A stretch of DNA of 64,000 nucleotides from positions 128,001-192,000 of the forward strand of contig CAVPCQ010000011.1 of assembly GCA_963702425.1 (NCBI GenBank), given 5' to 3'. Shown here one piece after another: positions 2,257 through 62,939 of the stretch; position 1 is the first letter of the stretch; every line of letters begins with the position of its first letter. The notes beneath the pieces were generated by a model that searched no databases, had not been told where the DNA came from, and saw only the letters and a program-made list of their open reading frames with translations. This stretch comes from an uncultured Acidobacteriota bacterium (GTDB lineage Bacteria > Acidobacteriota > Polarisedimenticolia > J045). Made by a program: the position numbers and the translations under genes.

Positions 2257-2901
2257 TCAGGCTCCCGGCCGCCGCGCGGCCCCGGTCAGCCGGTCCGGGT
2301 CGAGGACGACCACCGAGCCGCGCTCGAGCCGGACGCAGCCGCGCTGCTCGAAGGCCTTGAGCGCGCGCGAGACGACCTCCCGCGCGGTCCAGAGGTCGGC
2401 GGCGATCTTCTCGTGCGTCATCTCGAGCCGCCCCTCCCCGGCGGCACCCGGCCGAACGCGCGCGCGGTCCAGCAGGTAGGAGGCGAGGCGGTCGTCGACC
2501 GACAGGTTCTGGATGTCTTCCAGCAGCTCGAGAATCGCGCGCAGCCGCCCCGACAGCGAGGCGAGGAAGAGCCCGCGCAGGAACTCGTCGCTGCCGAAGA
2601 GCCGCCGGAAGGCTGCCGCCGGGACGGCCCACCCGACCGCAGGCTCTTCGACCGTGGCGCTGGCCAGAAGCGGCTCGTCGTTCAGCGCGCCGAGGCAGGA
2701 GACGAGGCACAGTTCGCCCGGACGCATGTGGTAGAGCGTCCCCTCGCGGTCGCCCGGTCGCGAGCGGAAGACGCGGACCGACCCTTCCTCGAGCAGGCCG
2801 ACGTGGCGGCACGGTTCCCCCTCGGCGAAGAGTCCCGTTCCTCGCGGGAGGTGGAAGGGACTGCCGTGCCGTCGAAACAGGGTCGCGAGGGTGGCGTTCA
2901 T
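2257..2901 (-). CDS. Crp/Fnr family transcriptional regulator
   Basis: cNMP-binding region LFAEGEPC...EGSVRVF...PGELC and HTH MTHEKIAADLWTAREVVSRALK. Likely start ATG 2901. Confidence 0.9.
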   Translation of the reverse strand: MNATLATLFRRHGSPFHLPRGTGLFAEGEPCRHVGLLEEGSVRVFRSRPGDREGTLYHMRPGELCLVSCLGALNDEPLLASATVEEPAVGWAVPAAAFRRLFGSDEFLRGLFLASLSGRLRAILELLEDIQNLSVDDRLASYLLDRARVRPGAAGEGRLEMTHEKIAADLWTAREVVSRALKAFEQRGCVRLERGSVVVLDPDRLTGAARRPGA

Positions 2902-3127
2902 CGGCGCTCTCCCGGGCCCCTCCAGCGCGGCCCCTTCGGACCGGAAGAGGGGGCGACCGGGTTCTGATACGCCGGACCGGTGAGTCGACGCCGGGCCGGC
3001 CGGACCCCCGGCAGGGTCAAGCAGAAGGAGGGGCGCCGGGGCATCCCCACCTCCCGCAGCGGCCCCCACCCGGTCCTCCGACCGTGGAATAATGAAGATT
3101 CTTGGTCGGGTTAAAGGTGGGGTGTCG

Positions 3128-3974
3128 ATGGTCAACCGAACGCGTTTCTCTGCGTCGCCGTTACGAGGCGGGGCGGCCCCGGCAAGCGTGGTCCTGGTCG
3201 TGGGCCTCGCGCTGCTCTCCGCTGCAGCTTCTCCCGCCGTGGCAAGCGAGACGGCGAGCAGCCGGCACGACGCTCTCGGACCCCTTCCCCTCCAGCCTCT
3301 ACGTCGAGCAGGACGTCAAGATCGCGGCGCGGCGCTCGGGCGTGATCGAGAAGGTCCTGGTCGACCGCGGGCAGGCCGTCCGGGCGGGCCAGGCGCTGGC
3401 GCTGCTCGAGACCGACCTCGCAACGCGGGACCTGGAGCTGGCCCAGGAGGAACTGCGCCTGGCCGAGGCCGAGCTGGCGCGGGTCGCGCCGCTGGCCGAC
3501 TCGGGAATCGTCTCGCAGCAGGAGCTGCAGCAGCGTCAGATCGACCGCGACCTCGCGAAGACCCGGGTCTCCCGCGCCCGCTCGATGCTCGAGCGCTGCA
3601 CCGTCGCGGCGCCGTTCGCCGGCGTCGTCGCCGAGCGCTGGGCGGTCCTGGGGGAGCGCGTCCAGGAGGACGACAACACCCCGCTCTTCCGCATCGTCGC
3701 CTCCGGACCGCTCCGCGCGCGGATCGACCTTCCCGAGGCCCTGCTCGCGCGCGTCGGGGTCCCGGGCCGCGCGACGCTCCGCCTGGACCGGGCGGCGACC
3801 GAGAGCTTCGCGGCGCGGGTGGTCTTCGTCAGCCCGACCGTCGACGCCGCCAGCGGCACCGCGCCGGTGATCGTCGAGCTGCCGAACACGGCGGGCCGGT
3901 TGCGCCCGGGGACGGCGGTCACCGTCCGGTTCGAGCTGGGCACGGGGACGGCAGGGGCACGGGAGGGGCGATGA
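3128..3974 (+). CDS. Efflux/secretion periplasmic adaptor (MFP/HlyD family); frameshift near 3270-3290
   Basis: Signal-like N-terminus in one frame, then VKIAARRSGVIEKVLVDRGQAV, coiled coil, VAAPFAGVV, VSPTVDAASGT and LRPG. Confidence 0.85.
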
Positions 3975-4675
3975 GCCCGCGCCTCGCGGCGCGCTTCGGG
4001 GCGGGCCGCCGGCCGCCGGCGGCCCACGCCGCCCCGAACCTGCTGGTCCACGAGCTCAAGCACCTCGCCAGTCGCCTGCAACTGCTCAACGAGAACCTCT
4101 TGCACCACTTCGACGACCCGGACTTCCGGCGGAGCGCGGCGGAGCTGCTCGACGACACGGTGCGCCAGCTGCGGCGCCTCGCCGGCGAGATGCACGAGCG
4201 CGAGGGGCGGCTGCTGGTCAAGCTGCGCGTCGACCTCAACGAGATCCTCGAGGACGCGCTGGTGAGCTGCCATCTCGGGCTGGCCCCGACGCTGCAGCTG
4301 GAGCGGCACTTCGGCCATCTGCCCCCGATCTGGGGCGACCAGTTCCTGCTGCGTCGAGCGTTCTGCTGCGCGATCGAAAATGCGCTCGAAGCGCTGGACG
4401 GACGCGGCAGGATTTCCGTCCGCACGCGCTGCTCGTCGAAGCGCCGCACTCCGCAGATCCTCGTCGAGATCCGCGACGACGGCCCGGGCATGTCCGCCGA
4501 GTTCCGGCGGCAGCTGCTGGCGCAGCGCTTCGCGAGCACCAAGTCCGACGGGTTGGGACTGGGCGTCTACACCGTGCGCCAGGTCGCGCGCCTGCACGGG
4601 GGCACGATGCGGATCGCCAGCTCCCCCGGCACCGGAACCTGCGTCCGTTTCTGGTTCCCGTTCGAAGGTGAGTGA
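3971..4675 (+). CDS. Histidine kinase, PrsK-like catalytic core with no sensor domain
   Basis: H-box VHELKHLAS...HFDDPDF resembles PrsK (VHDLKN...HxDNPEF). N-box ENALEA, DDGPGM, STKSDGLGLG. ATGA overlap with the MFP gene. Confidence 0.85.
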   Translation: MSPRLAARFGAGRRPPAAHAAPNLLVHELKHLASRLQLLNENLLHHFDDPDFRRSAAELLDDTVRQLRRLAGEMHEREGRLLVKLRVDLNEILEDALVSCHLGLAPTLQLERHFGHLPPIWGDQFLLRRAFCCAIENALEALDGRGRISVRTRCSSKRRTPQILVEIRDDGPGMSAEFRRQLLAQRFASTKSDGLGLGVYTVRQVARLHGGTMRIASSPGTGTCVRFWFPFEGE

Positions 4676-4678
4676 GCC

Positions 4679-6047
<1,369 letters not shown>

Positions 6048-6076
6048 TGGGTGAATAACCGGACTCCCGTGGGTGA
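6048..6076 (+). promoter_or_regulatory. Candidate enhancer (UAS) for the sigma-54 activator: TGGGTGA direct repeat, 22 bp apart
   Basis: TGGGTGA at 6048 and 6070, ~110-135 bp upstream of the -24 element. Confidence 0.4.
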
Positions 6077-6181
6077 CTTTTTCTTCCGACGCGCGCGATC
6101 CCGCCGGGGACGTGCGGGGGCCTGTGGTCGATCCTGTTGAAACGGCGAGAGTTGCGCGCCTCTCCCAGTTCGTCGGCTGCG

Positions 6182-6198
6182 GCGGCACGGCGATTGCA
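6182..6198 (+). promoter_or_regulatory. Sigma-54 (-24/-12) promoter
   Basis: GCGGCACGGCGATTGCA has GG-N10-GC spacing and matches YTGGCACGNNNNTTGCW except the two bases 5' of GG. It is followed by RBS AGGGAG and ATG 6235. Confidence 0.85.
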
Positions 6199-6234
6199 GG
6201 AAGCCAGGCGTCATCCTCAACAGGGAGAAACGCG

Positions 6235-6642
6235 ATGGATCAGCCGAAGGGCGTCACGATCAAGCTCACCGACAAGCAGCGCAGCCAGATCAAGACCGTC
6301 ACGGGGAAGGATCACGTCGAGATCCGGGTCGAGTCCTTCGACGGCGTCGGGCAGCAGCTCGGCGCGAAGGCCGCCGCCAAGATGCCGGCGAAGGCCGCCG
6401 CCAAGGCCGCCGCCAAGATGCCGGCGAAGGCCGCCGCAGCGAAGGCCGCCGCGCAAGATGCCGGCGAAGGCCGCTGGCCAAGGCCGCCGCCAAGATGCCA
6501 GGCGAAGGCGCGCTGCCGAAGCGGCTGCCGCCAAGATGCCGGCGAAGTCGGCCGCCGCCGCCAAGATGCCGGCGAAGGCCGCCGCCAAGAGTGCCGGCGA
6601 AGGCCGCTGCCAAGGCCGCTGCTGCGAGGCAAGAGGTTCTAG
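6235..6642 (+). CDS. Small Ala/Lys-rich repeat peptide; putative precursor or secreted substrate (several apparent 1-nt insertions)
   Basis: MDQPKGVTIKLTDKQRSQIKTVTGKDHVEIRVESFDGVGQQLG followed by AKAAAKMPAK-type repeats, probably ending GKRF*. Has an RBS and a sigma-54 promoter. Confidence 0.8.
   Translation: MDQPKGVTIKLTDKQRSQIKTVTGKDHVEIRVESFDGVGQQLGAKAAAKMPAKAAAKAAAKMPAKAAAAKAAAQDAGEGRWPRPPPRCQAKARCRSGCRQDAGEVGRRRQDAGEGRRQECRRRPLPRPLLRGKRF
6364..6625 (+). repeat. Coding tandem repeat, 7 x AAGATGCCGGCGAAG (KMPAK) with poly-Ala/Lys linkers
   Basis: Copies near 6379, 6415, 6456, 6492, 6533, 6563 and 6587; two carry single-base insertions. Confidence 0.9.
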
Positions 6643-6654
6643 TCCGCGCGCCGG

Positions 6655-6720
6655 GCGCCGACCCCGTGCGGGTTGGCGCGCGGCGGCCGGTGGTCGCGGG
6701 GTCCCTGTTTCGGGGCCCTT
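6655..6720. terminator. GC-rich hairpins between convergent genes
   Basis: GCGCCGACCC-cgtgc-GGGTTGGCGC and GGGTCCC-tgtttc-GGGGCCC. Confidence 0.5.
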
Positions 6721-6723
6721 CCG

Positions 6724-8829
6724 TCACCAGACGACGGTCGAAATCCACCGCGAAAAACGCCACCAGACCTGTCCGGCGAGGCTGCGTCGGGCCAGTTGGA
6801 ACTGGGCCTGGCCGGTCATGCCCGGGAGCAGGGCTCACCCGGATTCTCGATGTCGACCAGGACCCTCACCTGGTGCACGCGCCGCACGAGATCGACGGCC
6901 GAGGCGACCCCCTCCGGGGGAGCGGAGGCGAGCGGCGAGACGGCCTTCACGCGAGCCCGCAGGGTCTCGCCGGCAAGCGCCTCGACCCGCACCGGGCCGG
7001 CGTTCCGGGAACGACTTCCTGGACGTCGCGCTCGCTCATCCGCACCCCCAGGCGCACGGTGTCGGGCACGACGATCGTGCAGAGCTCGTCTCCCTCCGCG
7101 AGCCAGCGCCCCACGGACTCCTCGACGCGATATCCGGCGACGATCCCGGCGACCGGAGCCTTCATGACGAGGCGCTCGCGCCGCTGGTCGAGCATCGCGC
7201 CGCGAGCTTCGGCCGAGCCGGCCCGCTCCGATGCGGCGCTCGCGGCCGCGGGGTCCATCCTGGCGCGAGCCAGCACGGCACCGCGCCGGGCGACGTCGGC
7301 GTCCATCGCCGCGCCGGCAGCCGCGGCGGACAGCTCGGGGCTCGCGATCCGTGCGAGAACGGCTCCTGCCGGCACCCGGTCCCCTTCCCGGACCTCTACG
7401 GTCTCGACGACCCCCTCGGCCGGAGCGCGCACGACGGCTCGCTCGCCGGCCTCCACTTCGAAGACGCCACCGACGCGGGTCGGCAGCGGAGGATCGCGAC
7501 ACACGCCACGAGCAGCAGCCCGATGGCCGCTGCCGTCGCCTTTCCGGCCCCGGTCCCGAGCCACTCGCGCTTGTCGAGCCAGAGGTGCTTGAGGAAGCCC
7601 CGGATCGTTCGCACGCGACGCCTCAGGATCCAGGCGAAGAACAGGATCAGCGCGAGGTACCCGGCCGGCCCGAGCCACCCGACGAACCAACGTTCGAGCA
7701 GGTGGTAGATCACGATCATGATGGTCGCCGTGTAGAGGATGGCCGCCGTTCCGTACACGAGGTAGATCCGGCGCCGCCGTCGCGAAATCGGCGTTTCGGG
7801 GACCTCGAGCCGGAGCACGGTGCGCCGGAACAGTCCCCCGACGTATTCGAAGCTCTCTTCGCGCAGGTTCGGAACGTCGAGCCAGTCCATCAGCAGGTAG
7901 TAGCCGTCCAGCTTCAGCAGCGGATTGATGTTCAAGACGACGACAGACAGGCCGGTGAAGAAGACGACGGTCAACGCGAACTGATGGAGCCACGACTCGG
8001 CCGGTGTCAGGAGCCAGACCGCAGTCGCCACCGACGCCAACATGAGTTCGAAATACGGCCCGCCGAATGTCGCGTAGAGCCGGTGAGCGCGGTTCGTAAA
8101 GAGGTACGAATCGTCGATGTTGCAGTAGAAGGCGGGCTGGAAGTAGAAGATCATGAAACCGATGTCGTGCACCTCCCCGCCATAACGCTTGCACGTGAAG
8201 CCGTGACCCAGCTCATGCCAGATGCTGACGCCGATCAGGAACGCGAAGAACGCGAACCAGCCCCCGAGAGTCTTCTCCTTGAAGTTCCAGAGCTCGAAGA
8301 ACCCCTCCCAGTAGAGGCCCCAGTGGCGGAAGAGGAACACGAGCAGGACCGCGAATACCGCGATCCACGGGACGACGAACCACGGGGACCAGACCCAGCG
8401 GATCCACGGGATCACACGATCCATCATCCGGTTCGGGTCGAACATCGGGACCAGGATCTGGAACAGGCTGGATCGCTCGGCATCGTAGAACCGCCTCTGC
8501 CGCCTGGAGCGCAGCTTGTCCATCATGATGAGATGACGATCGCGTTCGCTGCGCTCGATCAGGTCGATCGATGTCAGCCCCTCGACGTACTCGACTACCC
8601 ACGCGGCGTCGATGGCGCGCTGCGGATTGTTCCGCGTGTATTCCTCGGCGATCTCCTCGGCGGTTCGCGAGCCATCCATCAGGAGCAGGAGCTCCTCGTA
8701 GTCGGGCTCGAACTTGTAGTAGTTCTGCGTCGCTGCGTCCTTGACCATGACGTAGTCGTCTTCACGGGTCGCGATCCGGCGGACGATGACTCCGGCCTTG
8801 AGACGCGGCTGAGAGTTCGCCGTATTCAC
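6724..8829 (-). CDS. Fusion of PqqD/RRE-like domain, site-2 (M50) metallopeptidase and HlyD/MFP domain; frameshifts near 7490, 6995 and 6830
   Basis: GTG 8829 (GTGA overlap). N-terminal VKDAATQNYYKF...LMDGSRTAEEIA, then TM helices, HELGH zinc motif and NINPLLKLDGY. C-terminal VRAPAEGVV...KAPVAG...LLPGMTGQAQ...VVW* ends at 6724. Confidence 0.88.
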
Positions 8830-11204
8830 GGCAACCAGCCCCAGAGCTTGTTCCAGATCCAGCGGGCGGGGCGACGGAGCAGGACGCGGCCCAGACTGGC
8901 GTTTCCGGTGTTGATCTTGGCTCGCCCCGTCATCCCCGACCGGAGGCCCTCGGGTTGCCCCGCCAACGCCGCGCGGACGAGAAAGACCTTGTATCCGTCC
9001 TCGTCGATCACGGCCTGGACCCCGACCCGCTGCACTTCCGCGCGAACGCTCGCCGTCGGCAGGGCGTAGAGCCGCACCTTGACCGGCATCGCAGCCGCAA
9101 TCAGCCCGGCGTCCCGCTCGGGGACGGCCACCTCGACCTCCTGGCGCTCGAGGTTGGCGATCTCGCAGAACACCTCCCCCGCTTCGAATCGCTCGCCCGA
9201 ACGATCCTCGATGCGCGGCGTGACCACGATGCCCGGCTCGCGAGCCCGGAGCCGGCTCCGTTCCAGCTCCGTCTCCCACCGCGTGACCTCGGAGGCGAGG
9301 CCTGCTGCCCGGGCCGCCTCGGCGGCCGCACCCGCGGCGTCGCCTTCGGCCCGACGCCGGGTCAGGGCACGCTCGGCGATCGCCAGCTGAGCCGTCGCCT
9401 CGGCCAGCGCCGCCCGGACTTCGACGTCATCGAGTCGCGCGATCTCCTGGCCCGCGTCCACGCTGTCCCCCTCCCGGACCAGGACCTGGGCGATGCGACC
9501 GCTGGCTTGCACCGAAACGGGCAGGCGCCGCTCCGGAAGGACGCGCGCGTCCCCCGCGATGCGCAGCGGCACCGGCACGAAGAGCAGAACTGCTGCCGCA
9601 AGTGCCGCGCCGCCGAGCCACGCGATGCGGCGCCGGCCCAGGGCGGCCAACCTCGCTTGCGTCCTCGCCAGGGGCTGCATCACCTGCCGCATCGGCATCT
9701 GCTGAAACAGGATGGCGTTGCGCAGCGCGACCGTGGCCTGGGTGGCGAGCAACTGCACCACTTCGAGATCCCGCGCCGAGAAGGCGTAGGGCTCCATGGC
9801 CTCGAGCGTCCAGACACCGAGTTTGCCGTCTCCATCGGCCAGGGGGACCGCGAGGAAGGAGTTGTTGCCCGTCTTCTCGAACCACGCGCTGAACTTCTCG
9901 CGCGTCTCGGGACGAGCGGTGTCGATCGAACCGTCCTCCTCGCGGACGACATAGACCCCCTCGTCCAGTCCCGCCGCCCACTCGACGATCCCTCGCAGTT
10001 CCTTTGTTTCGCTCAGGGTTTCGTCGACGAACCGCTGGCCGCTGATGGCCGTCAGTCCGAATCGCGCGCCGTGCTGGAGGCCGACCACCGCGCGCTGGTA
10101 CGAAAGCAGTTCGGCCGGCTTGTGGACCAGCGTGAAGGTGACGGTCTTGGCGTCGAGGTGCGAGGCGAGGGACTGCGACACGCCGAGCAGCGCCCCCAGG
10201 TCGGCCGCGCGACGTTCCGCATCGAGCCGCCGCGCGTTCGCGAGCGCGATCGCGGCGGTTCCCGCGATCTCCTTCAGGAAGGTCAGGTCGTCGGTATCGA
10301 GCAGCTCGCCACCGTTCCGGTTGACGACTTCGATCGCGCCGATGACACCGCCGTCGTCGTCGATGATCGGGGCTGCGGATGCCGAGGCGATCTCGAGGCC
10401 GCTCTGAACGTCGGGACGCGCCTCGACGTCGGCGATCTCCTCGGGCCCGGCAGCGAGCACGGGCTCGCCGGCCGCGAGGGCTGCTCCGGCGAGTCCTTCC
10501 GGAAGGCGCAACTCCCACCCCGCGACGACCTCCGCCGCGGTGCCCGCGGCGGCCGTCACGCTCACCGACTCGCCGCTCCCGTCGAGCAGCCACAGGTAAA
10601 CCTGCTCGACGTCGAGCGCGGCCTGCACGCGGTTGACGATCACCTCGGTCAGTGCGGCCATCTCGAGCGTGGCCGCGAACGAGCGCCCGATGTCGTAGAG
10701 GCGGCTCAGACGCTCGATCACCTCGATCATGTCCTGCTGCGCACGGTCCCGCTCGCGCACCGCGGCCAGGGCCGACTCGGCGGCGCCGAGCGGCTCGCGG
10801 GCCGAGGCGGCGTCGGCGACGCTGTAGGGACCCTCGCCGCGCGCGCGCTCGAGCAGCTCGATCACTCCGAACGGGCGCCCGGCCGCCCGCAGCGGGAGCA
10901 CGAGGCGCGAGCGGAAGCCGGCCTCGGTCGCCGCGGCCACGACCGGGGCGTCGAATGCCATCGCGCGCGCCGCCGCGTCCGGCGGCTCGACGTCGCCGCC
11001 ACCGCCGCGCGCGTCGGCCGGCCAGGCCCCCGCATACCGGAACCCGCGCCGCCGATCGAAGACGAACACCCGGACTCCGTCGGCGCCGAGCAGGGCCCCG
11101 ACCGCGCGCGCCAGCGCCCCCGCCGCCTGTGCCTCTCCGGTCGCCCGCGCCAGTTCGCCGGCCAGCCGCCAGACCGCCGCGGTGTCACCGCCTGGAACGC
11201 CCAT
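8826..11204 (-). CDS. Multi-GAF (about 3) domain protein fused to a HlyD/MFP adaptor
   Basis: GAF signatures (LVLPLRAAGRPFGVIEL; APIIDDDGGVIGAIEVVN...ALANARR; LAVPLADGDGKLGV...ALRNAILF), one TM helix, then the MFP region ending LRSGMTGRAKI. Confidence 0.9.
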   Translation of the reverse strand: MGVPGGDTAAVWRLAGELARATGEAQAAGALARAVGALLGADGVRVFVFDRRRGFRYAGAWPADARGGGGDVEPPDAAARAMAFDAPVVAAATEAGFRSRLVLPLRAAGRPFGVIELLERARGEGPYSVADAASAREPLGAAESALAAVRERDRAQQDMIEVIERLSRLYDIGRSFAATLEMAALTEVIVNRVQAALDVEQVYLWLLDGSGESVSVTAAAGTAAEVVAGWELRLPEGLAGAALAAGEPVLAAGPEEIADVEARPDVQSGLEIASASAAPIIDDDGGVIGAIEVVNRNGGELLDTDDLTFLKEIAGTAAIALANARRLDAERRAADLGALLGVSQSLASHLDAKTVTFTLVHKPAELLSYQRAVVGLQHGARFGLTAISGQRFVDETLSETKELRGIVEWAAGLDEGVYVVREEDGSIDTARPETREKFSAWFEKTGNNSFLAVPLADGDGKLGVWTLEAMEPYAFSARDLEVVQLLATQATVALRNAILFQQMPMRQVMQPLARTQARLAALGRRRIAWLGGAALAAAVLLFVPVPLRIAGDARVLPERRLPVSVQASGRIAQVLVREGDSVDAGQEIARLDDVEVRAALAEATAQLAIAERALTRRRAEGDAAGAAAEAARAAGLASEVTRWETELERSRLRAREPGIVVTPRIEDRSGERFEAGEVFCEIANLERQEVEVAVPERDAGLIAAAMPVKVRLYALPTASVRAEVQRVGVQAVIDEDGYKVFLVRAALAGQPEGLRSGMTGRAKINTGNASLGRVLLRRPARWIWNKLWGWLP

Positions 11205-11607: not shown

Positions 11608-12618
11608 TTATCGCCCCGCGGCGCGGAACTTGCGCGGCGAGTCGCCGTGCCAGCGGCGGAATGCGCGATGAAAGGCGCTGGGGTCGGAGTAGCCGAGCAG
11701 ATAGGCGACCTCGTAGACCGTGACGTCGCGCTCCTGCAGCAGGCGCCGCGCAACCCCACTGCGGAAGGAGTCGAGGACCTCCTTGAAACTCGTCCCCTCA
11801 TCCGCCAGGCGGCGCTGCAGGCTGCGGCCGCTCACGCCGAGCCGGGCGGCCACGACGCCGATCGACGGGCTGCCGGAGGCCATCTCCTGCCACAGCACCC
11901 TCCGCACGCCGTCGCCCGCCGAGTCGTCGTGCGACAGTTCTTTCCGCGCCTGCTCGGCCAACTGGTCGAGGTACGTGAGCAGGGTCTCGTCGGCCGTAGC
12001 GAGCGGCAGCTCGAGGTCCGAGGCATGCAGCACGAAGGCGGGCGCCTCCTGCTCGAAGCGGAGCGGGCAGCGGAAGATCCGGCGGAGCGCGGTGAGGTCG
12101 GCCGGAGCCGGGTACGGGAACCGGGCCTCGAGCGGGACGAGCTCGACCCCCGTCGTCAGCCGCGCGCCCGAGAGCAGCAGCGACAGGCGGAAGTCGATCG
12201 GCGGCCGCACCGGAGCGTACAGGAACGCGCGCTGCAGCTGGACCTCGGCCCGGTCCTCGCGGCGCCGCAGCGCGACGACGAGGTCCTCCGCAACGATCTG
12301 GCTGTAGCGGGAGACGCGGTGCAGCCCTTCCCCCAGCGTGCGGGCGAGCCGCATCGTGTAGGCGACGAGGCCGAGATCGCGATACGCTCGACTCTCCGCC
12401 ACGAGCAGGCCGACCGCCGGGTCCGGGACGCGCTTCGCGATCACTCCCCAGAGCCGCCGGAGCTTCGAGATCGGGACCCGGGCGTCCGGGTCGCGCAGTT
12501 CGTCCGCGCCGAAGCCGGCCTCCCTCAGCAGGGCGTCGGGGTCGAGCCCGAAGCGCTTCGTGCCGTGCGCGATGAAGAGCGGCAGGCGAACGAGCGCGGT
12601 CTGGTCGGAATCGTGCAT
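11608..12618 (-). CDS. AraC family transcriptional regulator (OruR-like)
   Basis: C-terminal LGVSGRSLQRRL...EVAYLLGYSDPSAFHRAFRRW. Confidence 0.92.
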   Translation of the reverse strand: MHDSDQTALVRLPLFIAHGTKRFGLDPDALLREAGFGADELRDPDARVPISKLRRLWGVIAKRVPDPAVGLLVAESRAYRDLGLVAYTMRLARTLGEGLHRVSRYSQIVAEDLVVALRRREDRAEVQLQRAFLYAPVRPPIDFRLSLLLSGARLTTGVELVPLEARFPYPAPADLTALRRIFRCPLRFEQEAPAFVLHASDLELPLATADETLLTYLDQLAEQARKELSHDDSAGDGVRRVLWQEMASGSPSIGVVAARLGVSGRSLQRRLADEGTSFKEVLDSFRSGVARRLLQERDVTVYEVAYLLGYSDPSAFHRAFRRWHGDSPRKFRAAGR

Positions 12619-22796: not shown

Positions 22797-25016
22797 CTAC
22801 TGGTCGGCGACCTCTTCCTTCCAGGCCCGGATCTCGATCGCCTTCTCGCGCGGCAGGTAGATGCCGAAGTCCTTCGCCCCTCCGAGCAGGCGCGGGTCGT
22901 GCGAGAACATCGTGATCGACGCCCCGACCGTCGCCTCGACCCGCGAAACGAACGCGCCGTAGGTCTCGATGATCCCGGAGGCGTCGGGGCGGAAGACCCC
23001 CGCGGTCGCGTGGTTGTTGTAGAGCACTCCGGCGATCTGCGGCACGCTCGGCGGGTTGGGCGAGAACTCGGACCAGGCGTGCGTCGTCACCGCGTCCAGC
23101 CAGAGCGGGCTTCCGCGCCAGATCCTGCCGTCGTTGTCGGTGTCGAGCGGCGCCGCGGTGTTGGGGTCGGCGGCGGAGGAGTTGAGCCGGTCGTTGATGT
23201 TCTCGGGCAGTGCGAAGCTCGACGAGCCGGCCGTGGGCAGTCCCTGCCCGTTGAGCGAGCCGCGTTGGATCCGGTCGTCGAACCGCGCGTCGCCGTCGAT
23301 GTCCTCGCCCGAGCCGGGGATGACGTCGCCGATCGCATAGCCGGCCGGGATCAGCCCGGACCCGCACTGGCCCTGGCCGTCGGCGGAATAGTACTTCACG
23401 TTCCAGACGTTGTTTCCCTCGTTGGTGTCGGCCGTGTTGGGCAGGTTGTCGACGCCGAGATCTTCCTTGGATTGGTTGTTGGCGTCCGCCAGCCAGCCAT
23501 CCACCAGGCCCCAGTTCGCGCCGTCGGGAAAGCGGCCGATGATGATGTTCTCGCGCGCGAACATCCCGACCAGGTCGGCGTCGCGTACGGAGTAGGTCCC
23601 GGCGGGAGCCGTGGCCGAGGTCAGGGCGCGCCAGGCCTGGATGTCCGCGGTCGCCATCGACGCGAACCCGGTCTTGGCGACGTTGCCGTAACCGGTCCCC
23701 GCGGGCGTACCCGAGTCCGGCAGGTGCGGCCGCGGCGGGTTGTCGTAGAGCAGGCCGTTCGGGAGGTAGACGTTCCCCGAGGTGTAGATGCTCCCCTGCC
23801 CCGAGATCCGGCCCATCAGGATGACGCTCCCGGTCATGGGTCGCAGGCCGGCCGCGTCCCACTCGTCGCTCGTGTTCCAGATCCCGTCGGCGCCGGGCGA
23901 TCCGATCACCACCGGCCCATCGACGATGATCGGACGCGTGCGGCCGTCGAGGATCATGAACGGCGACTCGTCGTCGTCCGTGTTGGCCGTTCCGTCGCGG
24001 CCGTAGCCGTCGTCCGCGGTGTTCCAGGTGGCGTCCGGGCCGACGTTGCAGCCGATGCAGCCGCGGTAGGTGCGGTAGCGGCCGAGCTTCTGGTCCCAGA
24101 CCTTCAGCGTCGAGCCGCCGGTGTCGTCCGGGGTCCCCCAGAGATCGTCCGCTCCGGCCGCTCCGCCGTTCCATTCGCGCGCCGCCTTGATGTAGACGGA
24201 GAGATCCGACAGGTTCGGCATCGGGACGATGTCCTGGTATTCCAGTCGGTTCGCGGCGACGCTGTAGTCACCCTTGAGGTTCTCCGGCCCGAGAATCCGC
24301 TTGCCGGCGATCACGCCGCCGTCGTGCAGCCGGTGGATCAGCTTGTTGCCGACGATCTTCTCGAAGTAGGGCGTACCGCGGCCCCAGATGCACGAGCCGT
24401 AGAGCCGCACGTCGCCATTCGCCCGCAGGTTGCCGTGGAAGTAGAGCTGCCCGCAGCCCCAGCCGCTCATCCAGCCGAAGTTGTTCATGAAGTAGGCGTT
24501 GTCGAACACCCGTGAGGGGATGAGCTTGAGCCGGATGACCGCCGACAGCGTCTTCTGCTTGCCCTCCAGGACGGCCGTCGAGCGGATGTTCATGTCGACG
24601 TACTCCAACTGGCGGGCTTCGTCGATCGTCGTGGGGTAGGTCAGGATGTTGACGGTGTAGCTGCCGCGGCCGTGCTGGATGTTCACGTAGTCGCGACCGG
24701 AGTCGTCGGCCGTCCCGGCAGTGCCGTCGGCGCCTCGCGACTTGCCGTGCGTCAGGTGCAGCATGACGTAGTTGTCGAAGATGTGGTCGAGGTTCGGGTT
24801 GCCGACCAGAGAGCAGGTGACGTCGCCGGTCATCCGCTCGAGGCCCGCCTCTGCGATATAGAGCAGCTCGTTGTTGTCCTTGTCCTGATCGGTCGTCCTG
24901 AGCGAGAGCATCGACGATCCGAGCATCGCCAGACCCATCAGGGTCAGCGCGGACACGACGAACATGACGACGAGCAGGGCGGCGCCGCGCTCGTCACGCT
25001 GCTTTCCGATGTTCAT
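22797..25016 (-). CDS. Large PilX-like minor pilin (~740 aa)
   Basis: ERG|AALLVVMFVV (class III signal lacking E5) and LYIAEAGLE PilX motif. RBS GAGGTG before ATG 25016. Confidence 0.82.
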   Translation of the reverse strand: MNIGKQRDERGAALLVVMFVVSALTLMGLAMLGSSMLSLRTTDQDKDNNELLYIAEAGLERMTGDVTCSLVGNPNLDHIFDNYVMLHLTHGKSRGADGTAGTADDSGRDYVNIQHGRGSYTVNILTYPTTIDEARQLEYVDMNIRSTAVLEGKQKTLSAVIRLKLIPSRVFDNAYFMNNFGWMSGWGCGQLYFHGNLRANGDVRLYGSCIWGRGTPYFEKIVGNKLIHRLHDGGVIAGKRILGPENLKGDYSVAANRLEYQDIVPMPNLSDLSVYIKAAREWNGGAAGADDLWGTPDDTGGSTLKVWDQKLGRYRTYRGCIGCNVGPDATWNTADDGYGRDGTANTDDDESPFMILDGRTRPIIVDGPVVIGSPGADGIWNTSDEWDAAGLRPMTGSVILMGRISGQGSIYTSGNVYLPNGLLYDNPPRPHLPDSGTPAGTGYGNVAKTGFASMATADIQAWRALTSATAPAGTYSVRDADLVGMFARENIIIGRFPDGANWGLVDGWLADANNQSKEDLGVDNLPNTADTNEGNNVWNVKYYSADGQGQCGSGLIPAGYAIGDVIPGSGEDIDGDARFDDRIQRGSLNGQGLPTAGSSSFALPENINDRLNSSAADPNTAAPLDTDNDGRIWRGSPLWLDAVTTHAWSEFSPNPPSVPQIAGVLYNNHATAGVFRPDASGIIETYGAFVSRVEATVGASITMFSHDPRLLGGAKDFGIYLPREKAIEIRAWKEEVADQ

Positions 25017-31263: not shown

Positions 31264-32372
31264 TTCTCCCAGGGCAGCCCGGGCTTTCCGAAGTGGCCGT
31301 AGTTGGTGGTCTTCGTGTAGAGCGGCTGCAGCAGCTTGAGCCGCTCGATGATCGCGTGCGGCCGGAAGTCGAACTTCTCGCGCACGAAAGCCGCCGCCTT
31401 GTCGGGGTCACCGGTGCCGAACGTCTCGACCAGCACCGACATCGGCTGGGCGCGGCCGATCGCGTAGGCGACCTGGATCTCGGCTCGCCGCGCGAGCTTG
31501 TGCCGGACCAGCTGGCGCGCGACGAAGCGGCAGAAGTAGGCGCTGGACCGGTCGACCTTCGAGGGGTCCTTGCCCGAGAACGCGCCGCCGCCGTGACGGG
31601 CGAAGCCGCCGTAGGTGTCGACGATGATCTTGCGGCCGGTCACGCCGGCATCGGCAGTGGGGCCGCCGATCTCGAAGGCCCCGGTCGGATTGACGAGGTA
31701 CTCGATCTTCCTGTGCGCCCAGTCGCCCAGCACCTGGGGCGCGAACTGTTCGACGATCCAGGACCGGATCTCCTTCGGCTTCGTCCCGTGCGCGTGCTGG
31801 GTCGAGACCAGAACCGACTCGACCTCGACCGGCCGGCCGTCCCGGTACTGCACGGTGACCTGCGTCTTGGCGTCGGGCCGCAGCCACTTCGGACCGTCGC
31901 CGTGCCGTGCCTCGGCCAGGGCGCGCGAGAGCTTGTGGGCCAGCAGGATCGGCAGCGGCATCAGTTCCGGCGTCTCGTCCGTCGCGTAGCCGAACATGAT
32001 CCCCTGGTCGCCGGCGCCCTGCTGGTCGGGGTCGGTGCGGTCCACCCCCTGAGCGATGTCGGCCGACTGCCGCGTCAGGTGGAGCTGCACCGAGACGCCG
32101 GCGGCGTTGAAGGACTCGCTCGGGTCGGTGTAACCGATCTTCTCGATCGTGTCGCGCACGAGCTTCTCGAAGTTCAGCCTGGCACCGGTCGTGATCTCGC
32201 CCCCCAGGATGACCTGGTTGCTCTTGCACATGACTTCGCAGGCGACGCGGCTGTGCTTGTCCTGCCTCAGGCACTCGTCGAGCACGGTGTCGGCGATCAG
32301 GTCGCAGACCTTGTCGGGGTGGCCTTCGGTCACGGACTCGGAGCTGAACAGGAACTCGTTCGTTTTCGCCAT
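31260..32372 (-). CDS. metK: S-adenosylmethionine synthetase
   Basis: SESVTEGHPDK, GAGDQG, TGRKIIVDTYG, GGGAFSGKDPSKVDRS. Confidence 0.98.
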   Translation of the reverse strand: MAKTNEFLFSSESVTEGHPDKVCDLIADTVLDECLRQDKHSRVACEVMCKSNQVILGGEITTGARLNFEKLVRDTIEKIGYTDPSESFNAAGVSVQLHLTRQSADIAQGVDRTDPDQQGAGDQGIMFGYATDETPELMPLPILLAHKLSRALAEARHGDGPKWLRPDAKTQVTVQYRDGRPVEVESVLVSTQHAHGTKPKEIRSWIVEQFAPQVLGDWAHRKIEYLVNPTGAFEIGGPTADAGVTGRKIIVDTYGGFARHGGGAFSGKDPSKVDRSSAYFCRFVARQLVRHKLARRAEIQVAYAIGRAQPMSVLVETFGTGDPDKAAAFVREKFDFRPHAIIERLKLLQPLYTKTTNYGHFGKPGLPWEK

Positions 32373-32462
32373 GGGGCTTTTTCCTTCTTCCGGGCGGGCC
32401 TCGGGCCCGCGAACGCTCGTTGGACTCGGATCCGCGGCCGCGCACCGGGGAACGCGGATCGA

Positions 32463-32699: not shown

Positions 32700-33680
32700 C
32701 CGGCCGGGGGTCGCCACCCCCCACCCCAACGACGGAGGAGAAGAAGGCGGCCGACGGCGGCTTCCCGGCATCGGACGGGGTCCCCGATCGCGAACCCTCC
32801 CCGGTCGAATCCGCCGAGTTTCAGGCGGTCGATCCGGGCGATCGCTGGCCGGTCGAGCAGATCGTCGCCGGCCGGTGGATCGAGGCCGGACCGACCAACA
32901 TCCCCGGCCCGGTCACCGGCCTGGCCCGGCCGGCGAACTCGCCCGGGTCGCTCCTGGTCGCCAACGCCGACGGCGGGCCGAGGCTCACGCGCGACAGCGG
33001 GGCGAGCTGGGAGCCGCTGACCGAGGGCGAGGCGACGCAGGCCTCGGCTCGGTCCAGGCCGATCCGGTCGATCCCCGGGTCTTCTAGTGGGGCACGGGCG
33101 AGTGGAACGGGGCAATCGACAACCACGACGGCGAGGTGATCGGCGGCCGCGATTCGGGCGTCTACGGCAGCACGAACCGCAGCCTCAACCGGGTGGGTGG
33201 CCACCGGGCAGGGCCTGCCCACCACGCAGTTCCACGGGGGCTGCGGCCACGATACCGACGGCGCGTGGCTCGCGGGCGGGACGGAGGACAGCGGCACCGA
33301 CCGGACCCGGACCGGCGAGTCCTGGCGCTGCATCCGCTGGGGCGACGGCGGGAACGGCTTCGCCGATGCCAGCTCGGGGGTCCGCAGCGACGACGCCGAA
33401 GGCGTGGGGCGGGATCTTCGAGCGCAACCCCTCATCCGGTCGAACGATCTACCTCGGCACCAGCCGCGTCTACCGCACGACCGACTTCCACACGGCGGCG
33501 TGGAAGGAGATCCTCGGGCCGGTCTACCGCAACCGGCTGGTGAGCGCGCTCGCGGTCTCTCCCGCCAACCGCAGCGCGCTCTGGGTGGGCTACGAGTGGG
33601 GCGGCCTGTACCGCTCGGCGGACGCACCGGCTGCGCTGGGACACCGAGGCCTGCGCGGCCGCGCGTTACCACCTCTCCTA
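32700..33680 (+). pseudogene. Fragmented remnant of a BNR/VPS10-like beta-propeller (glycosyl hydrolase-like) gene
   Basis: Disconnected motifs in three frames: WIEAGPTNIPG..; GLPTTQF..LAGGTEDSGT..WGDG; TIYLGTSRVYRT..VSALAVSP..LWVG..GGLYRS. Confidence 0.65.
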
Positions 33681-39392: not shown

Positions 39393-40097
39393 ATGGAAAG
39401 CTCGCGCGTCATCGTCCATCCCGATCGACCGGCGCTCGATGCCGGCGCGGCCACGCTGATCGTCGAGCGGCTGGCGGCGCTGCTCGCCGAGCGCGAGCGG
39501 GCTTCGTTGATGCTCTCGGGCGGCTCCACGCCGCGCGCGGTCTATCAGGCGCTCGCCACGCCGCCGCTCTCGGCCCGGCTGCCGTGGGACCGGATCGACT
39601 TCTACTTCGGCGACGAGCGGGCCGTGCCGCGCGAGGACCCGGAGAGCAACTACGGCATGGCACGCCGCGTGCTGTTCGACCCGCTCGGCGCCTCGCCGCG
39701 GCAGGTGTTCCGGATGGAGGCCGACGATTTCGACATCGAGGCCGCGGCGGAGCGCTACGGCGCGGTGCTTCCGGAGTCGATCGACCTGGTGCTGCTCGGC
39801 GTGGGCGCCGACGGCCATACCGCGTCGCTCTTTCCCGGACAGCCGGCGCTCGACGAGACCGCGCGTCGGGTCGTAGCCGTGCACGGACCGAAGCCCCCGG
39901 TGCTGCGCCTGACGGTCACTCCACCGGTGCTCGTGGAAGCGGGAGAGATCGTGGTCCTGGCGACCGGAGGCGACAAGGCCAAGGCGATCCAGCGCGCCTT
40001 TGAGGGGCCGTGGGACCCGATGATCTGCCCGGCGCAACTGGCGCGGCGCGGGACCTTCGTCCTGGACCGAGCGGCGGCGGCGCTGCTGGCGCGCTGA
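39393..40097 (+). CDS. pgl: 6-phosphogluconolactonase
   Basis: LSGGSTP, GDERAVP, LLGVGADGHTASLFP. Confidence 0.95.
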   Translation: MESSRVIVHPDRPALDAGAATLIVERLAALLAERERASLMLSGGSTPRAVYQALATPPLSARLPWDRIDFYFGDERAVPREDPESNYGMARRVLFDPLGASPRQVFRMEADDFDIEAAAERYGAVLPESIDLVLLGVGADGHTASLFPGQPALDETARRVVAVHGPKPPVLRLTVTPPVLVEAGEIVVLATGGDKAKAIQRAFEGPWDPMICPAQLARRGTFVLDRAAAALLAR

Positions 40098-59760: not shown

Positions 59761-59761
59761 G

Positions 59762-61532: not shown

Positions 61533-62939
<1,407 letters not shown>

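What the first reader, a model, noticed from the sequence alone, without database searches (positions are those of the whole stretch)
6235..6642. Hidden ~130-aa peptide: unique 43-aa leader-like region plus 7 KMPAK Ala/Lys repeats
Seen: the ORF track splits it across three frames because of several 1-nt insertions. Removing them gives MDQPKGVTIKLTDKQRSQIKTVTGKDHVEIRVESFDGVGQQLG-(AKAAAKMPAK-like)x7-...GKRF*. Inference: the leader plus repeated-core layout resembles multi-core RiPP precursors, and the highly cationic product could be antimicrobial, DNA-binding or a matrix component. The N-terminus resembles small proteins I recall as 'LTxEQxxQIKxxTGK..E' near similar M50 loci, which is unverified. 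A histone-H1-like (AlgP/HctB-type) nucleoid role is the main alternative.
Basis: partly seen in the sequence, partly recalled or inferred. Interest (0 to 1): 0.82.

Follow-up and report, generated by a model that had tools for sequence, protein, structure and literature searches.

The report
Small repeat peptide with protease-exporter partners
A small gene, garbled here by probable sequencing errors, encodes a conserved "address tag" followed by a lysine-rich repeated tail; it belongs to a large unnamed family of soil and sediment bacterial peptides that sit beside a tag-reading membrane protease and export-type proteins, so it is probably cut and secreted.

Summary
Window 6235-6642 (+) has an ATG, a GGGAGA ribosome site and a 34-residue conserved N-terminus. 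An Ala/Lys repeat array follows whose sensible reading hops frames 1-2-3-1-2-3-1, which means six net 1-nt insertions. Discounting them gives about 133 aa with seven KMPAK. Short-read contigs of related strains lack both testable insertions and restore three frameshifts in the neighbouring gene, so assembly error is the likelier cause.

The gene belongs to an unannotated family: 326 clusters match its leader profile. Tails vary between species and are often tandem-repeated. In every locus with enough flank the gene lies after a sensorless histidine kinase and a sigma-54 activator, behind a -24/-12 promoter. It converges on a GAF-HlyD protein and a fusion of RRE, site-2-type metalloprotease and HlyD.

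The RRE (RiPP leader-recognition fold; Z about 10 to TfuB1, TbiB1 and PqqD) is new here and is the strongest support for a leader/substrate reading. No tailoring enzyme is conserved, and cleavage, export and product function are inferred. A histone-like role is unlikely.

Verdict: a new variant of RRE-dependent leader-peptide systems, closest to the daptide protease MpaP but not a daptide.

The parts
3102..3974 (+). HlyD-type periplasmic adaptor ('HlyD3'), first gene of the plus-strand operon
   Evidence: Pfam HlyD_D23 4.4e-25 and HlyD_3 7.2e-18. The G059 orthologue scores 179.7 bits on TIGR01730 RND_mfp (cut-off 94.9) and begins with a lipoprotein-like signal ending in Cys. Present in 10 of 13 genome loci.
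4025..4675 (+). Short histidine kinase (DHp and catalytic domains only; no transmembrane segment or sensor domain found)
   Evidence: HATPase_c 7e-20 at the C-terminal end of ORF 3092-4675. Relatives' roughly 215-250 aa kinase maps to window 4025-4660. The G059 orthologue has no hydrophobic segment and resembles the C-terminus of PrsK (107 bits, cut-off 300). The start coordinate is approximate.
4679..6047 (+). Response regulator and sigma-54 activator (REC, AAA+, Fis-type HTH), broken by a frameshift near 5150-5200 in this assembly
   Evidence: REC in ORF 4679-5149; Sigma54_activat (from profile position 27), AAA_lid_14 and HTH_8 in ORF 5175-6047. Relatives have one 510-518 aa ORF that maps to frame 2 and then frame 3 of the window. 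TIGR02915 PEP_resp_reg 428 bits, below its cut-off of 502.6.
6183..6198 (+). Sigma-54 type -24/-12 promoter element, CGGCACGGCGATTGCA, ending 36 nt before the ATG
   Evidence: One mismatch to TGGCAC-N5-TTGCW. There are 3 such sites in 64 kb against 0.46 expected. A like element lies within 160 nt upstream of the family gene in 47 of 61 loci, mostly 36-68 nt from the start, against a background of 0.022 per 160 nt.
6223..6228 (+). Shine-Dalgarno GGGAGA, 6 nt before the ATG
   Evidence: Read from the sequence. Relatives have GGGAGA or GGAGG at the same place.
6235..6642 (+). Small precursor-like gene (leader, linker and Ala/Lys repeat tail); about 133 aa once six inserted bases are discounted
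   Evidence: The closest intact homologue, P0013, is 84% identical over the leader-linker region. There is one copy in the window's own genome.
6235..6336 (+). Conserved leader, residues 1-34, predicted strand-helix-strand
   Evidence: Profile search: 326 clusters at E<=1e-3 and 43 at E<=1e-10, nearly all with the match at residue 1. AlphaFold2 on 125 sequences gives strand 5-10, helix 13-23, strand 29-34, pLDDT 95-96 over residues 11-30. Codon changes among same-genus genes are mostly synonymous, e.g. 10 synonymous to 1 non-synonymous.
6364..6627 (+). Ala/Lys-rich tandem repeat array (units AKAAAKMP and AKAAAK; seven KMPAK), holding six net 1-nt insertions near 6453, 6476, 6500, 6509-6521, 6591 and 6628
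   Evidence: TRF, three-frame translations, tblastn with P0013. Contigs of other runs lack the extra base at 6591 (2 of 2 runs that cover it) and at 6628 (3 of 3 runs that cover it).
6724..8829 (-). Fusion protein of RRE, site-2-type (M50) intramembrane metalloprotease and HlyD, convergent with the small gene. In this assembly the HlyD part has three frameshifts near 7487, 6991 and 6832.
   Evidence: NF041824 daptide_HExxH 1.6e-60 (205 bits, cut-off 300) and Peptidase_M50 and HlyD domains. Relatives have one 733-823 aa ORF that maps to frames -2, -1, -3, -2 of the window. HExxH and NPLxxxDG are invariant in 14 of 14 sequences. Contigs of other runs carry an extra base at 7487 (4 runs), 6991 (3 runs) and 6832 or 6835 (3 runs). 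The GTG start at 8829 overlaps the upstream stop (GTGA). The low end is approximate.
8545..8796 (-). RRE (PqqD-like winged helix) domain at the N-terminus of the protease
   Evidence: AlphaFold2 gives three strands then three helices, pLDDT 82-90 over residues 11-90. Foldseek top hits are RREs (TbiB1, PqqD, PbtF, TfuB1) at E 5.5e-3 to 4e-2, probability 0.98-1.00. VIA-align Z 10.2, 10.0 and 9.4 over whole stand-alone RREs. Pfam PqqD is above cut-off in 1 of 7 homologues but not in the window's own copy.
8826..11204 (-). GAF-HlyD protein: cytoplasmic GAF domains, one transmembrane segment, periplasmic HlyD domain; upstream gene of the minus-strand pair
   Evidence: GAF_2 2.5e-27, HlyD_D23 2.4e-15. 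One hydrophobic segment at 543-561 in the G059 orthologue. Present in 13 of 13 genome loci.

Best explanation
The gene is real and encodes a leader-plus-tail precursor.

It is transcribed from a sigma-54 promoter under the adjacent kinase and activator. Its conserved 34-residue strand-helix-strand leader is the handle recognised by the RRE domain of the convergently encoded RRE-M50-HlyD protein. That protein's intramembrane zinc protease then cuts the Ala/Lys repeat tail from the leader, either once or at each repeat. The three HlyD-type proteins (one fused to the protease, one fused to GAF domains, one lipoprotein-like) pass the cationic product or products out of the cytoplasm. In this window the gene looks broken because the assembly carries six spurious inserted bases.

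Shown here:
- gene signals, the family and leader conservation
- selection on the repeat peptides
- the sigma-54 element
- module linkage
- the RRE fold and intact protease motifs
- indels absent from other assemblies

Inferred, not shown:
- leader-RRE binding
- cleavage and its site(s)
- export
- control by the kinase and activator
- what the product does
For: Gene and family:
- ATG, Shine-Dalgarno site and repeats.
- Intact orthologues in 4 of 4 same-genus genomes and in other families.
- 326 clusters match the leader profile, nearly all small proteins with the match at residue 1.

Selection:
- Leader codon changes are mostly synonymous (10:1, 7:2, 4:0).
- The ASKSAL units of a relative are encoded by six DNA variants, including AGC/TCG serine switches.

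Transcription:
- -24/-12 element at 6183-6198 and in 47 of 61 loci, against a background of 0.022 per 160 nt.

Linkage:
- Activator, M50 and GAF-HlyD in 13 of 13 genome loci.
- Activator upstream in 24 of 26 and M50 downstream in 14 of 15 metagenome loci of a distant subfamily.

Protease:
- Best family matches are RiPP leader peptidases (daptide_HExxH 1.6e-60; YydH/LiaK 8e-12).
- Catalytic motifs are invariant.
- N-terminal RRE fold.
- In daptides an RRE fused N-terminally to an intramembrane site-2 protease is the proposed leader peptidase (PMC10036551, passages).
- The S2P-clan protease TmcP was shown to remove a bacteriocin leader (PMC13712780, passages).
- Two family members carry a double-glycine-type leader end after the domain (P0110, P0115).

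Assembly error:
- Relatives' single ORFs split over frames in the window's activator and protease genes.
- About 20 further frame changes against a same-genus genome across the 64 kb.
- Contigs from 4 runs of 3 studies lack the insertions at 6591 and 6628 and restore 6832/6835, 6991 and 7487.
Against: - No tailoring enzyme, ABC/RND/MFS pump or outer-membrane channel is conserved in the module, so the energy source and route for export are unexplained.
- The tails are hydrophilic, whereas known substrates of S2P-type proteases are membrane-embedded or hydrophobic. This point comes from established knowledge and was not tested.
- The protease scores below the curated cut-offs of both RiPP peptidase models.
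- Pfam PqqD is not detected in the window's own copy, and no Foldseek hit to an RRE reaches E<=1e-3.
- Only 38 of 144 tails are strongly periodic, so repeats are common but do not define the family.
- The contigs that lack the insertions differ from the window by about 2% (21 other letters in 1,009). They are therefore related strains, not the source population.
- Four of the six insertion sites (6453-6521) are not covered by any long contig.
- Six indels in about 200 bp is far above the window's background of roughly one per 3 kb.
Confidence: 0.6

Rival explanations
1. The frameshifts are genuine: in this strain the precursor gene, and perhaps the whole module, is decaying into pseudogenes, while the family is functional elsewhere.
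For: Indels are concentrated in the module. There are six in the small gene, three in the HlyD part of the protease gene and one in the activator, all within 5150-7500. The 3.6 kb from 7558 to 11192 shows none. The contigs lacking the indels come from strains about 2% different. Best run shares of the stretch's sampled words are only 0.33-0.44.
Against: Frame changes against a same-genus genome are scattered over the whole window at about 20 places, including highly conserved genes, which fits a generally indel-prone assembly. Every coding-region indel seen in the other assemblies restores the frame. Tandem repeats are a classic site of consensus errors (general knowledge). All six changes are insertions and sum to a multiple of three.
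Confidence: 0.2
2. The small protein is a cytoplasmic regulator rather than an exported product. The M50 protease carries out regulated proteolysis of it and so tunes the sensorless kinase and sigma-54 activator. The leader is the docking part and the tail acts as a spacer, timer or degron.
For: The kinase has no sensor domain or membrane segment, so it needs a partner for input. The GAF domains and the RRE are cytoplasmic. Site-2 proteases are best known for regulated proteolysis of signalling proteins (established knowledge). No pump is conserved.
Against: RRE domains are known for binding precursor leaders in peptide natural-product pathways (structures listed). The nearest protease families are leader peptidases. 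Selection keeps the exact repeat peptides, and repeat units differ completely between genera, which is unexpected for a spacer. Three HlyD periplasmic domains have no role in a purely cytoplasmic circuit.
Confidence: 0.13
3. It is a histone-H1/AlgP-like nucleoid-associated protein that binds DNA through its Lys/Ala/Pro repeats.
For: The window's tail (AKAAAKMPAK..) resembles Lys/Ala/Pro repeats of AlgP-type proteins (recalled, not tested). 93 of 144 family tails are net positive.
Against: 15 of 144 tails are net acidic and many are near neutral, for example the DRANP and RKAPF units. The conserved part is the leader, not the basic tail. Linkage to the RRE-protease and HlyD proteins is tight. 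Expression is from a sigma-54 promoter under a two-component system.
Confidence: 0.04

Closest known systems
Daptide pathway leader peptidase MpaP and its precursors MpaA (Ren et al., Nat Commun 2023, PMC10036551; passages read)
   Same: An RRE domain is fused N-terminally to an intramembrane site-2-type metalloprotease. It sits next to small precursor genes with a conserved N-terminal leader. NCBIfam's daptide_HExxH is the best match to the window's protease (1.6e-60, covering profile positions 10-375 of 379).
   Different: The score is below the equivalog cut-off (205 against 300). The precursors have no invariant C-terminal Thr and no ELExMEAP motif. No MpaB/C/D/M-type enzymes or ABC transporter are among the conserved neighbours. 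The protease carries a C-terminal HlyD domain. Two more HlyD proteins and sigma-54 two-component control are present. The tails are hydrophilic repeats, not aliphatic helices.
Other S2P-clan leader peptidases of bacteriocins: TmcP of TMcin (PMC13712780, passages read) and the YydH/LiaK epipeptide protease family (NCBIfam NF058609)
   Same: An intramembrane HExxH protease removes a leader. The second-best NCBIfam match of the window's protease is RiPP_HExxH_LiaK (8.1e-12).
   Different: Those systems are Gram-positive, use ABC transporters and have membrane-embedded or radical-SAM-modified substrates. The score here is far below cut-off (45 against 225).
NHLP/Nif11 long-leader precursor families with HlyD-containing export cassettes (Haft et al. 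2010, PMC2887384; only the search listing and abstract start were seen)
   Same: A conserved leader domain of tens of residues is followed by a hypervariable core, and HlyD-type proteins are in the cassette. Two members of the present family end the leader with a double-glycine-type motif.
   Different: There is no sequence match to those leader models. No C39-peptidase ABC transporter is present. Processing is by an M50 protease, and no tailoring enzymes are conserved.
Multi-core precursors: microviridin with several cores (PMC5934393, listing and abstract only); cyanobactins, fungal Kex2-processed repeat precursors and yeast alpha-factor (recalled)
   Same: One leader is followed by tandem copies of a short peptide unit whose amino-acid sequence is under selection.
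   Different: Release of individual units is not shown here. Only 38 of 144 family tails are strongly periodic. There is no cyclase or other modifying enzyme.
AlgP / histone-H1-like Lys-Ala-Pro repeat proteins (recalled)
   Same: The composition and short-period Lys/Ala/Pro repeats of this window's tail.
   Different: See the fourth rival. A basic tail is not conserved in the family, and the leader and protease context is foreign to nucleoid proteins.

Membership tests
RRE-dependent leader-peptide (RiPP-type) precursor | Conserved N-terminal leader with a hypervariable C-terminal part | tested here: met
   Invariant or at least 90% conserved columns all lie within residues 1-24. Repeat units differ between genera: ASKSAL, SPAKRV, ASKAGL, DRANP.., RKAPF...
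RRE-dependent leader-peptide (RiPP-type) precursor | An RRE (PqqD-like) domain in a protein of the cluster | tested here: met
   The N-terminus of the M50-HlyD protein has a three-strand, three-helix fold. Z is 10.2, 10.0 and 9.4 to TfuB1, TbiB1 and PqqD. Foldseek probability is 1.00 but E is only 5.5e-3. Pfam PqqD is above cut-off in 1 of 7 homologues.
RRE-dependent leader-peptide (RiPP-type) precursor | Physical binding of the leader to the RRE | not testable with these tools
   Needs a binding assay with leader peptide and purified RRE domain.
RRE-dependent leader-peptide (RiPP-type) precursor | A leader peptidase in the cluster | tested here: met
   M50-type protease with HExxH and NPLxxxDG invariant in 14 of 14 sequences. 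Its best matches are RiPP leader peptidase models. Cleavage itself is untested.
RRE-dependent leader-peptide (RiPP-type) precursor | At least one post-translational tailoring enzyme acting on the core | tested here: not met
   Across 13 genome loci and 45 metagenome loci, only the HlyD proteins, kinase, activator, RRE-M50-HlyD and GAF-HlyD matched the module's reference proteins. Other genes in the relatives' flanks were not annotated. An enzyme encoded elsewhere in the genome is not excluded.
Daptide | [quoted passage not shown] | tested here: not met
   The window's protein ends ..KRF. Relatives end in F, Q, G, K and others, and the leader motif is different.
Daptide | MpaP-type RRE-peptidase scoring as an equivalog | tested here: not met
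   NF041824 scores 205 bits (window) and 218 bits (G059) against a cut-off of 300. It is related but outside the family.
Daptide | Decarboxylase partner, aminotransferase and methyltransferase genes in the cluster | tested here: inconclusive
   None are among the conserved neighbours. Their HMMs were not searched genome-wide.
Site-2 protease / peptidase M50 clan | HExxH in a membrane helix plus a distal NxxPxxxxDG motif | tested here: met
   H205, E206, H209, N302, P303, L304, D308 and G309 are invariant. Several hydrophobic segments are present. Pfam Peptidase_M50 scores 27.6 bits against a cut-off of 27.2. The PDB profile hit to the MJ0392 S2P has E 0.0073.
NHLP/Nif11 leader families | Leader homologous to nitrile hydratase alpha or Nif11; double-glycine site; C39-peptidase ABC exporter | tested here: not met
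   No NCBIfam or Pfam hit for the leader. The window's protein has no double-glycine motif. No ABC transporter is among the conserved neighbours.
AlgP / histone-H1-like nucleoid proteins | A basic Lys/Ala/Pro repeat tail as the conserved, functional part | tested here: not met
   Met for this one protein but not across the family: 15 of 144 tails are net acidic, and the conserved part is the leader.
AlgP / histone-H1-like nucleoid proteins | DNA binding and nucleoid association | not testable with these tools
   Needs fractionation or a DNA-binding assay.

The most novel reading that the evidence does not exclude
The module is a peptide-pheromone circuit of a new type in Acidobacteriota.

The RRE-guided intramembrane protease chops the tandem tail into many copies of a short, species-specific peptide (for example ASKSAL, SPAKRV or xKMPAK), in the way yeast alpha-factor or neuropeptide precursors are processed. 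The HlyD assembly releases the peptides. The flux or load of the machine is reported through the cytoplasmic GAF domains to the sensorless kinase, which drives the sigma-54 activator and hence the precursor's own promoter (autoinduction). The rapid turnover of repeat units between genera would then represent pherotype divergence.
Probability: 0.12. Interest if true: 0.88.

Novelty: new variant of a known kind. Interest (0 to 1): 0.7.

Why it matters
If this reading is right, an unnamed family of at least 326 sequence clusters is a new branch of leader-guided peptide biosynthesis. It is found in Acidobacteriota genomes and in unclassified metagenome contigs. In this branch one protein combines leader recognition (RRE), an intramembrane protease and a periplasmic HlyD adaptor, with no tailoring enzyme and no recognisable pump, under sigma-54 two-component control.

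It would matter in four ways:
- It would give function to hundreds of 'hypothetical' small ORFs that gene callers and assemblies easily lose, as happened here.
- It would extend RRE biology beyond modified peptides.
- It offers a tractable test of whether bacteria make multi-copy repeat precursors of short secreted peptides.
- It is a practical warning that tandem-repeat small genes in error-prone assemblies are mis-framed.

Tried and rejected
- **Complex prediction** of the protease region (alignment A3) with the precursor (A4) and zinc gave no support (score 0.01, mark 0.32). This is not evidence either way.
- **The look-up of sequencing runs** listed no RNA holder. This is no evidence on expression.
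- **The search for homologous proteins** with P0013 found only P0013, P0154 and P0008, because low-complexity words filled the candidate list. With region 1-43 there were only 2 candidates.
- **The listing of cluster members** on 10 family members returned only 'hypothetical protein' or no name.
- **ESM Atlas** gave no usable hit for the leader.
- **Foldseek** of the 43-residue leader model found nothing at E<=0.001. The best hit was E 4.1.
- **blastn gap histogram** against the same-genus genome is not usable. The module region is only 78% identical, so gaps there are unreliable.
- **Pairwise identity of tails** (0.41) is inflated by low complexity and permissive gaps, so I did not use it.
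- **P0004** (2163 aa, nine partial matches to leader positions 4-24) is a repeat of an extracellular Ig-like module. I judged it a chance motif match.
- **Rfam** gave only a sub-threshold CRISPR-DR20 hit on the repeat's minus strand (21.9 bits against 42), which I take as chance.
- **Promoter and terminator scan** found no sigma-70 site and one terminator-like site, no more than in shuffles.
I repeated it with 5 closer sequences.
- **Literature.** Eight full-text searches found no paper describing this leader family or an M50-HlyD or GAF-HlyD module. I combined these terms: M50, HlyD, sigma-54, GAF, Acidobacteria, precursor peptide, tandem repeat, site-2 protease, membrane fusion protein, HExxH, RiPP recognition element. 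Supplements were closed. The daptide paper's supplementary RRE-family lists may include related RRE-peptidase groups that I could not see.
Full report
**1. What is in the sequence**

Window 6235-6642 (+) begins with ATG, preceded by GGGAGA six bases upstream, and ends at TAG 6640-6642. Frame 1 is open throughout, as part of ORF 6073-6642. It reads MDQPKGVTIKLTDKQRSQIKTVTGKDHVEIRVESFDGVGQQLG, then AKAAAKMPAKAAAKAAAKMPAKAAAAKAAA, and then turns into Arg/Pro/Cys-rich nonsense. The Ala/Lys repeat carries on in frame 2 and frame 3.

Tandem Repeats Finder reports 6364-6614, period 25, 9.8 copies, 15% indels.

I read the DNA against the repeat unit and ran tblastn with an intact homologue (P0013). 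The sensible reading follows frames 1-2-3-1-2-3-1, which means six net single-base insertions near 6453, 6476, 6500, 6509-6521, 6591 and 6628. Their sum is a multiple of three, which explains why start and stop are in one frame. Discounting them gives about 133 aa with seven KMPAK: five are intact and two are broken at 6500 and 6591.

**2. Are the frameshifts real?**

The genome is a 42-contig, 5.1-Mb assembly with 91% completeness and 5.9% contamination.

Relatives' single ORFs split over frames in the window:
- The sigma-54 activator changes frame near 5150-5200.
- The protease-HlyD gene changes frame near 7489, 6965-6992 and 6831.

Against a same-genus genome there are about 20 further frame changes scattered over the 64 kb.

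I laid Logan contigs of four metagenome runs (three studies) on 5200-7600. They lack the window's base at 6591 (X2, X4) and at 6628 (X1, X2, X4). They carry an extra base at 6832 or 6835 (X1, X2, X4), at 6991 (X1-X3) and at 7487 (X1-X4). Every coding-region difference restores the frame. With 6628 removed, the Ala/Lys frame runs into ..SKRF-stop, like the ..RSSSF and ..RKSF ends of same-genus relatives.

Caveats:
- These contigs differ from the window by about 2%, so they are related strains.
- No long contig covers 6417-6554, so four of the six sites are untested.
- The indel density in the repeat is about a hundred times the window's background.

I put assembly error at about 75% and a genuine pseudogene at about 20-25%.

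**3. The family**

The leader alone finds one copy in the window's own genome. It finds intact orthologues in 4 of 4 other genomes of the genus, and matches at E<=1 in 15 of 61 relatives, the window's genome included.

All have a strong ribosome site and the same N-terminus, but different tails:
- (ASKSAL) x9-19 in the genus
- (SPAKRV) x12
- (ASKAGL) x15
- NAKSALG.. units

A 12-sequence leader profile searched against 1.84 billion representatives finds 326 clusters at E<=1e-3 and 43 at E<=1e-10. Among the 150 listed, most are proteins of 45-190 aa with the match starting at residue 1.

P0013 (101 aa; 84% identical over the leader-linker region) has uninterrupted AKAAAKLPAK repeats. This independently supports the corrected reading.

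In a 125-sequence alignment Q15 and G24 are invariant and M1, L11, T12 and T23 are at least 90% conserved. Nothing in the tail is conserved.

Of 144 tails:
- 38 are strongly periodic and 59 moderately so
- 93 are net basic and 15 net acidic (for example the DRANP and RKAPF units)
- only 9 contain Cys
- 118 contain [KR]xx[PL]

Two members follow the domain with a double-glycine-type leader end (..LSDGELDAVAGG.., P0110..LSEMDLDKVAGG.., P0115).

Pfam and NCBIfam have no model for the family. Ten sampled members carry only 'hypothetical protein' or no name.

Five loci from named records are all uncultured Acidobacteriota MAGs. In an even sample of the phylum, 14 of 301 genomes have the gene; one of those 14 is the unpublished genome G082.

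**4. It is translated and the peptide matters**

Among same-genus genes, leader codon differences are mostly synonymous: 10:1, 7:2, 6:1 and 4:0.

The 19 ASKSAL units of one relative are encoded by six DNA variants, including AGC/TCG serine switches. The 12 SPAKRV units of another are encoded by seven variants. Selection therefore acts on the amino-acid repeat and not only on slippage-prone DNA. Copy number varies within the genus (9, 13, 14 and 19).

AlphaFold2 on the 125-sequence alignment predicts the leader as strand 5-10, helix 13-23, strand 29-34, with pLDDT 95-96 in the core. No structural neighbour was found for so small a model.

**5. The neighbourhood**

On the plus strand, upstream of the small gene, lie:
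- an HlyD-type adaptor (3102-3974)
- a short histidine kinase with only DHp and catalytic domains (about 4025-4675), with no hydrophobic segment in the orthologue
- a REC/sigma-54 AAA+/Fis-HTH activator (4679-6047)

Thirty-six bases before the ATG lies CGGCACGGCGATTGCA, a -24/-12 element. A like element stands within 160 nt upstream in 47 of 61 family loci, mostly 36-68 nt from the start. The background is 0.022 per 160 nt. The count is a lower bound, because a few loci were taken in the wrong orientation or from an imprecise start.

On the minus strand, converging on the small gene, lie:
- a GAF-HlyD protein (8826-11204)
- a protein that begins at GTG 8829, overlapping the preceding stop as GTGA, and runs to about 6724. 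It has an N-terminal soluble domain, a multi-helix HExxH domain and a C-terminal HlyD domain.

The module is conserved. The activator, M50 and GAF-HlyD genes are present in 13 of 13 genome loci from several families, the kinase in 12 of 13, and the third HlyD in 10 of 13 (contig ends account for some misses).

For a distant, acidic-tail subfamily I scanned metagenome contigs and found 45 loci. The activator is upstream in 24 of 26 loci with at least 1.5 kb of flank. M50 is downstream in 14 of 15 with at least 2.5 kb. In the loci compared with the window no other shared gene appeared; in the remaining loci only these five proteins were sought.

**6. The protease has a leader-recognition domain**

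The best family matches of the protease are RiPP leader peptidases: daptide_HExxH at 1.6e-60 (205 bits, cut-off 300) and YydH/LiaK at 8e-12. HExxH and NPLxxxDG are invariant in 14 of 14 homologues.

[quoted passage not shown] I therefore tested the N-terminal roughly 140 residues:
- Pfam PqqD is above cut-off in 1 of 7 homologues (27.1 against 23.4 bits). Hits to PaaA-like_N are weak in 3 of 7. The window's own copy has no hit.
- A profile search against PDB sequences lists TbiB1, TfuB1 and PqqCD, but only at E 0.12-1.4.
- AlphaFold2 gives three strands followed by three helices, with pLDDT 82-90 over residues 11-90.
- Foldseek's top hits are RRE structures: TbiB1 with its leader peptide, PqqD, PbtF, TfuB1, LynD/TruD, ThcOx, TbtB and CteB. 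Probability is 0.98-1.00 for the leading RRE hits, but the best E is 5.5e-3.
- VIA-align gives Z 10.2 (TfuB1, 84 of 85 residues, 2.6 A), 10.0 (TbiB1) and 9.4 (PqqD, 89 of 94). An unrelated winged-helix domain (Rv2067c, Z 10.5) ranks equally high.

I conclude that the domain has the RRE fold. Its function as a leader binder is inferred.

**7. Mechanism proposed**

The kinase and activator switch on the sigma-54 promoter. The precursor's leader docks on the RRE, probably by adding its VTIKLT strand to the RRE sheet, as leaders do in the TbiB1 and TfuB1 complexes listed. The M50 site cuts between leader and tail, or repeatedly within the tail. The HlyD domains form the path outward.

A second S2P-clan protease, TmcP, has been shown experimentally to remove a bacteriocin leader (PMC13712780, passages).

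Weak points:
- There is no pump or outer-membrane channel in the module.
- The tails are hydrophilic.
- No tailoring enzyme is present.
- Scores are below the cut-offs of the named families.
- Binding, cleavage and export are all untested.

A structure-based test of protease-precursor contact gave no verdict (see Tried and rejected).

**8. Comparison and novelty**

The module works most like the daptide MpaP/MpaA pair but fails the daptide membership tests: no C-terminal Thr, a different leader motif, no Mpa enzymes, and a sub-threshold score. It shares the logic of the NHLP/Nif11 long-leader families but neither their sequences nor their PCAT export. The repeat tails recall multi-core precursors. 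The histone-like reading fits only this one tail's composition.

Eight full-text searches found no description of the leader family or of an RRE-M50-HlyD / GAF-HlyD / sigma-54 module. Supplements were closed, so related RRE-peptidase groups listed there cannot be excluded.

I rate it a new variant of a known kind, with interest 0.7. The boldest reading not excluded is a multi-copy peptide-pheromone circuit with flux sensing through the GAF domains (probability about 0.12).

Noticed in passing
window, about 20 places, e.g. 19490, 23800-23830, 30640, 32350-32400, 33046-33395, 47003, 50253, 51070-51165, 52095, 56345-56375, 57036-57079, 59650-59850: Frame changes relative to a same-genus genome inside otherwise 80-97% identical coding regions. 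This suggests the assembly is indel-prone throughout, so other genes of this window are probably mis-framed as well. Some of these may be errors in the other genome or intergenic differences.
   Followed up: partly
P0150 (322 aa, representative protein): Two leader-like motifs (..IELTSEQQQTILDATG.. and ..IDMTEEQREQIRKLTG..) are embedded in the N-terminal part of a full-length PrmA-type (ribosomal protein L11 lysine) methyltransferase. PF06325 scores 5.6e-50 and its match spans residues 48-321, so it covers the second motif. This may hint that a lysine methyltransferase can be recruited to this leader type, or it may be a chance motif match.
   Followed up: no
P0110 and P0115: Family members in which the conserved domain is followed by a classical double-glycine leader end (..AVAGG and ..KVAGG) and a short non-repetitive core. 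This suggests the same leader domain is also used with double-glycine-type processing. Their genomic context was not examined.
   Followed up: no
P0075, P0076, P0100, P0116: Small proteins with two tandem copies of the leader-like motif and no repeat tail. Their meaning is unknown.
   Followed up: no
window 39658-39673 (+) and 62315-62330 (-): Two further one-mismatch matches to the sigma-54 -24/-12 consensus (TGGCACGCCGCGTGCT and TGGCACATCGAGTGCT). The downstream genes were not examined.
   Followed up: no
window 2257-3135 (-) and 11608-12618 (-): A Crp-type regulator (cNMP-binding domain plus HTH) and an AraC-type regulator flank the module. The Crp-type flank finds no match in the more distant loci compared with the window, so it looks like a neighbour rather than a part; the AraC gene's conservation in relatives was not examined.
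   Followed up: partly
L054 (G171) and L056 (G023): The gene order of the module differs. In L054 the HlyD, kinase, activator, GAF-HlyD and M50-HlyD genes lie on one strand, and in L056 the third HlyD gene sits between GAF-HlyD and M50-HlyD. The set of genes is kept while the arrangement varies.
   Followed up: no
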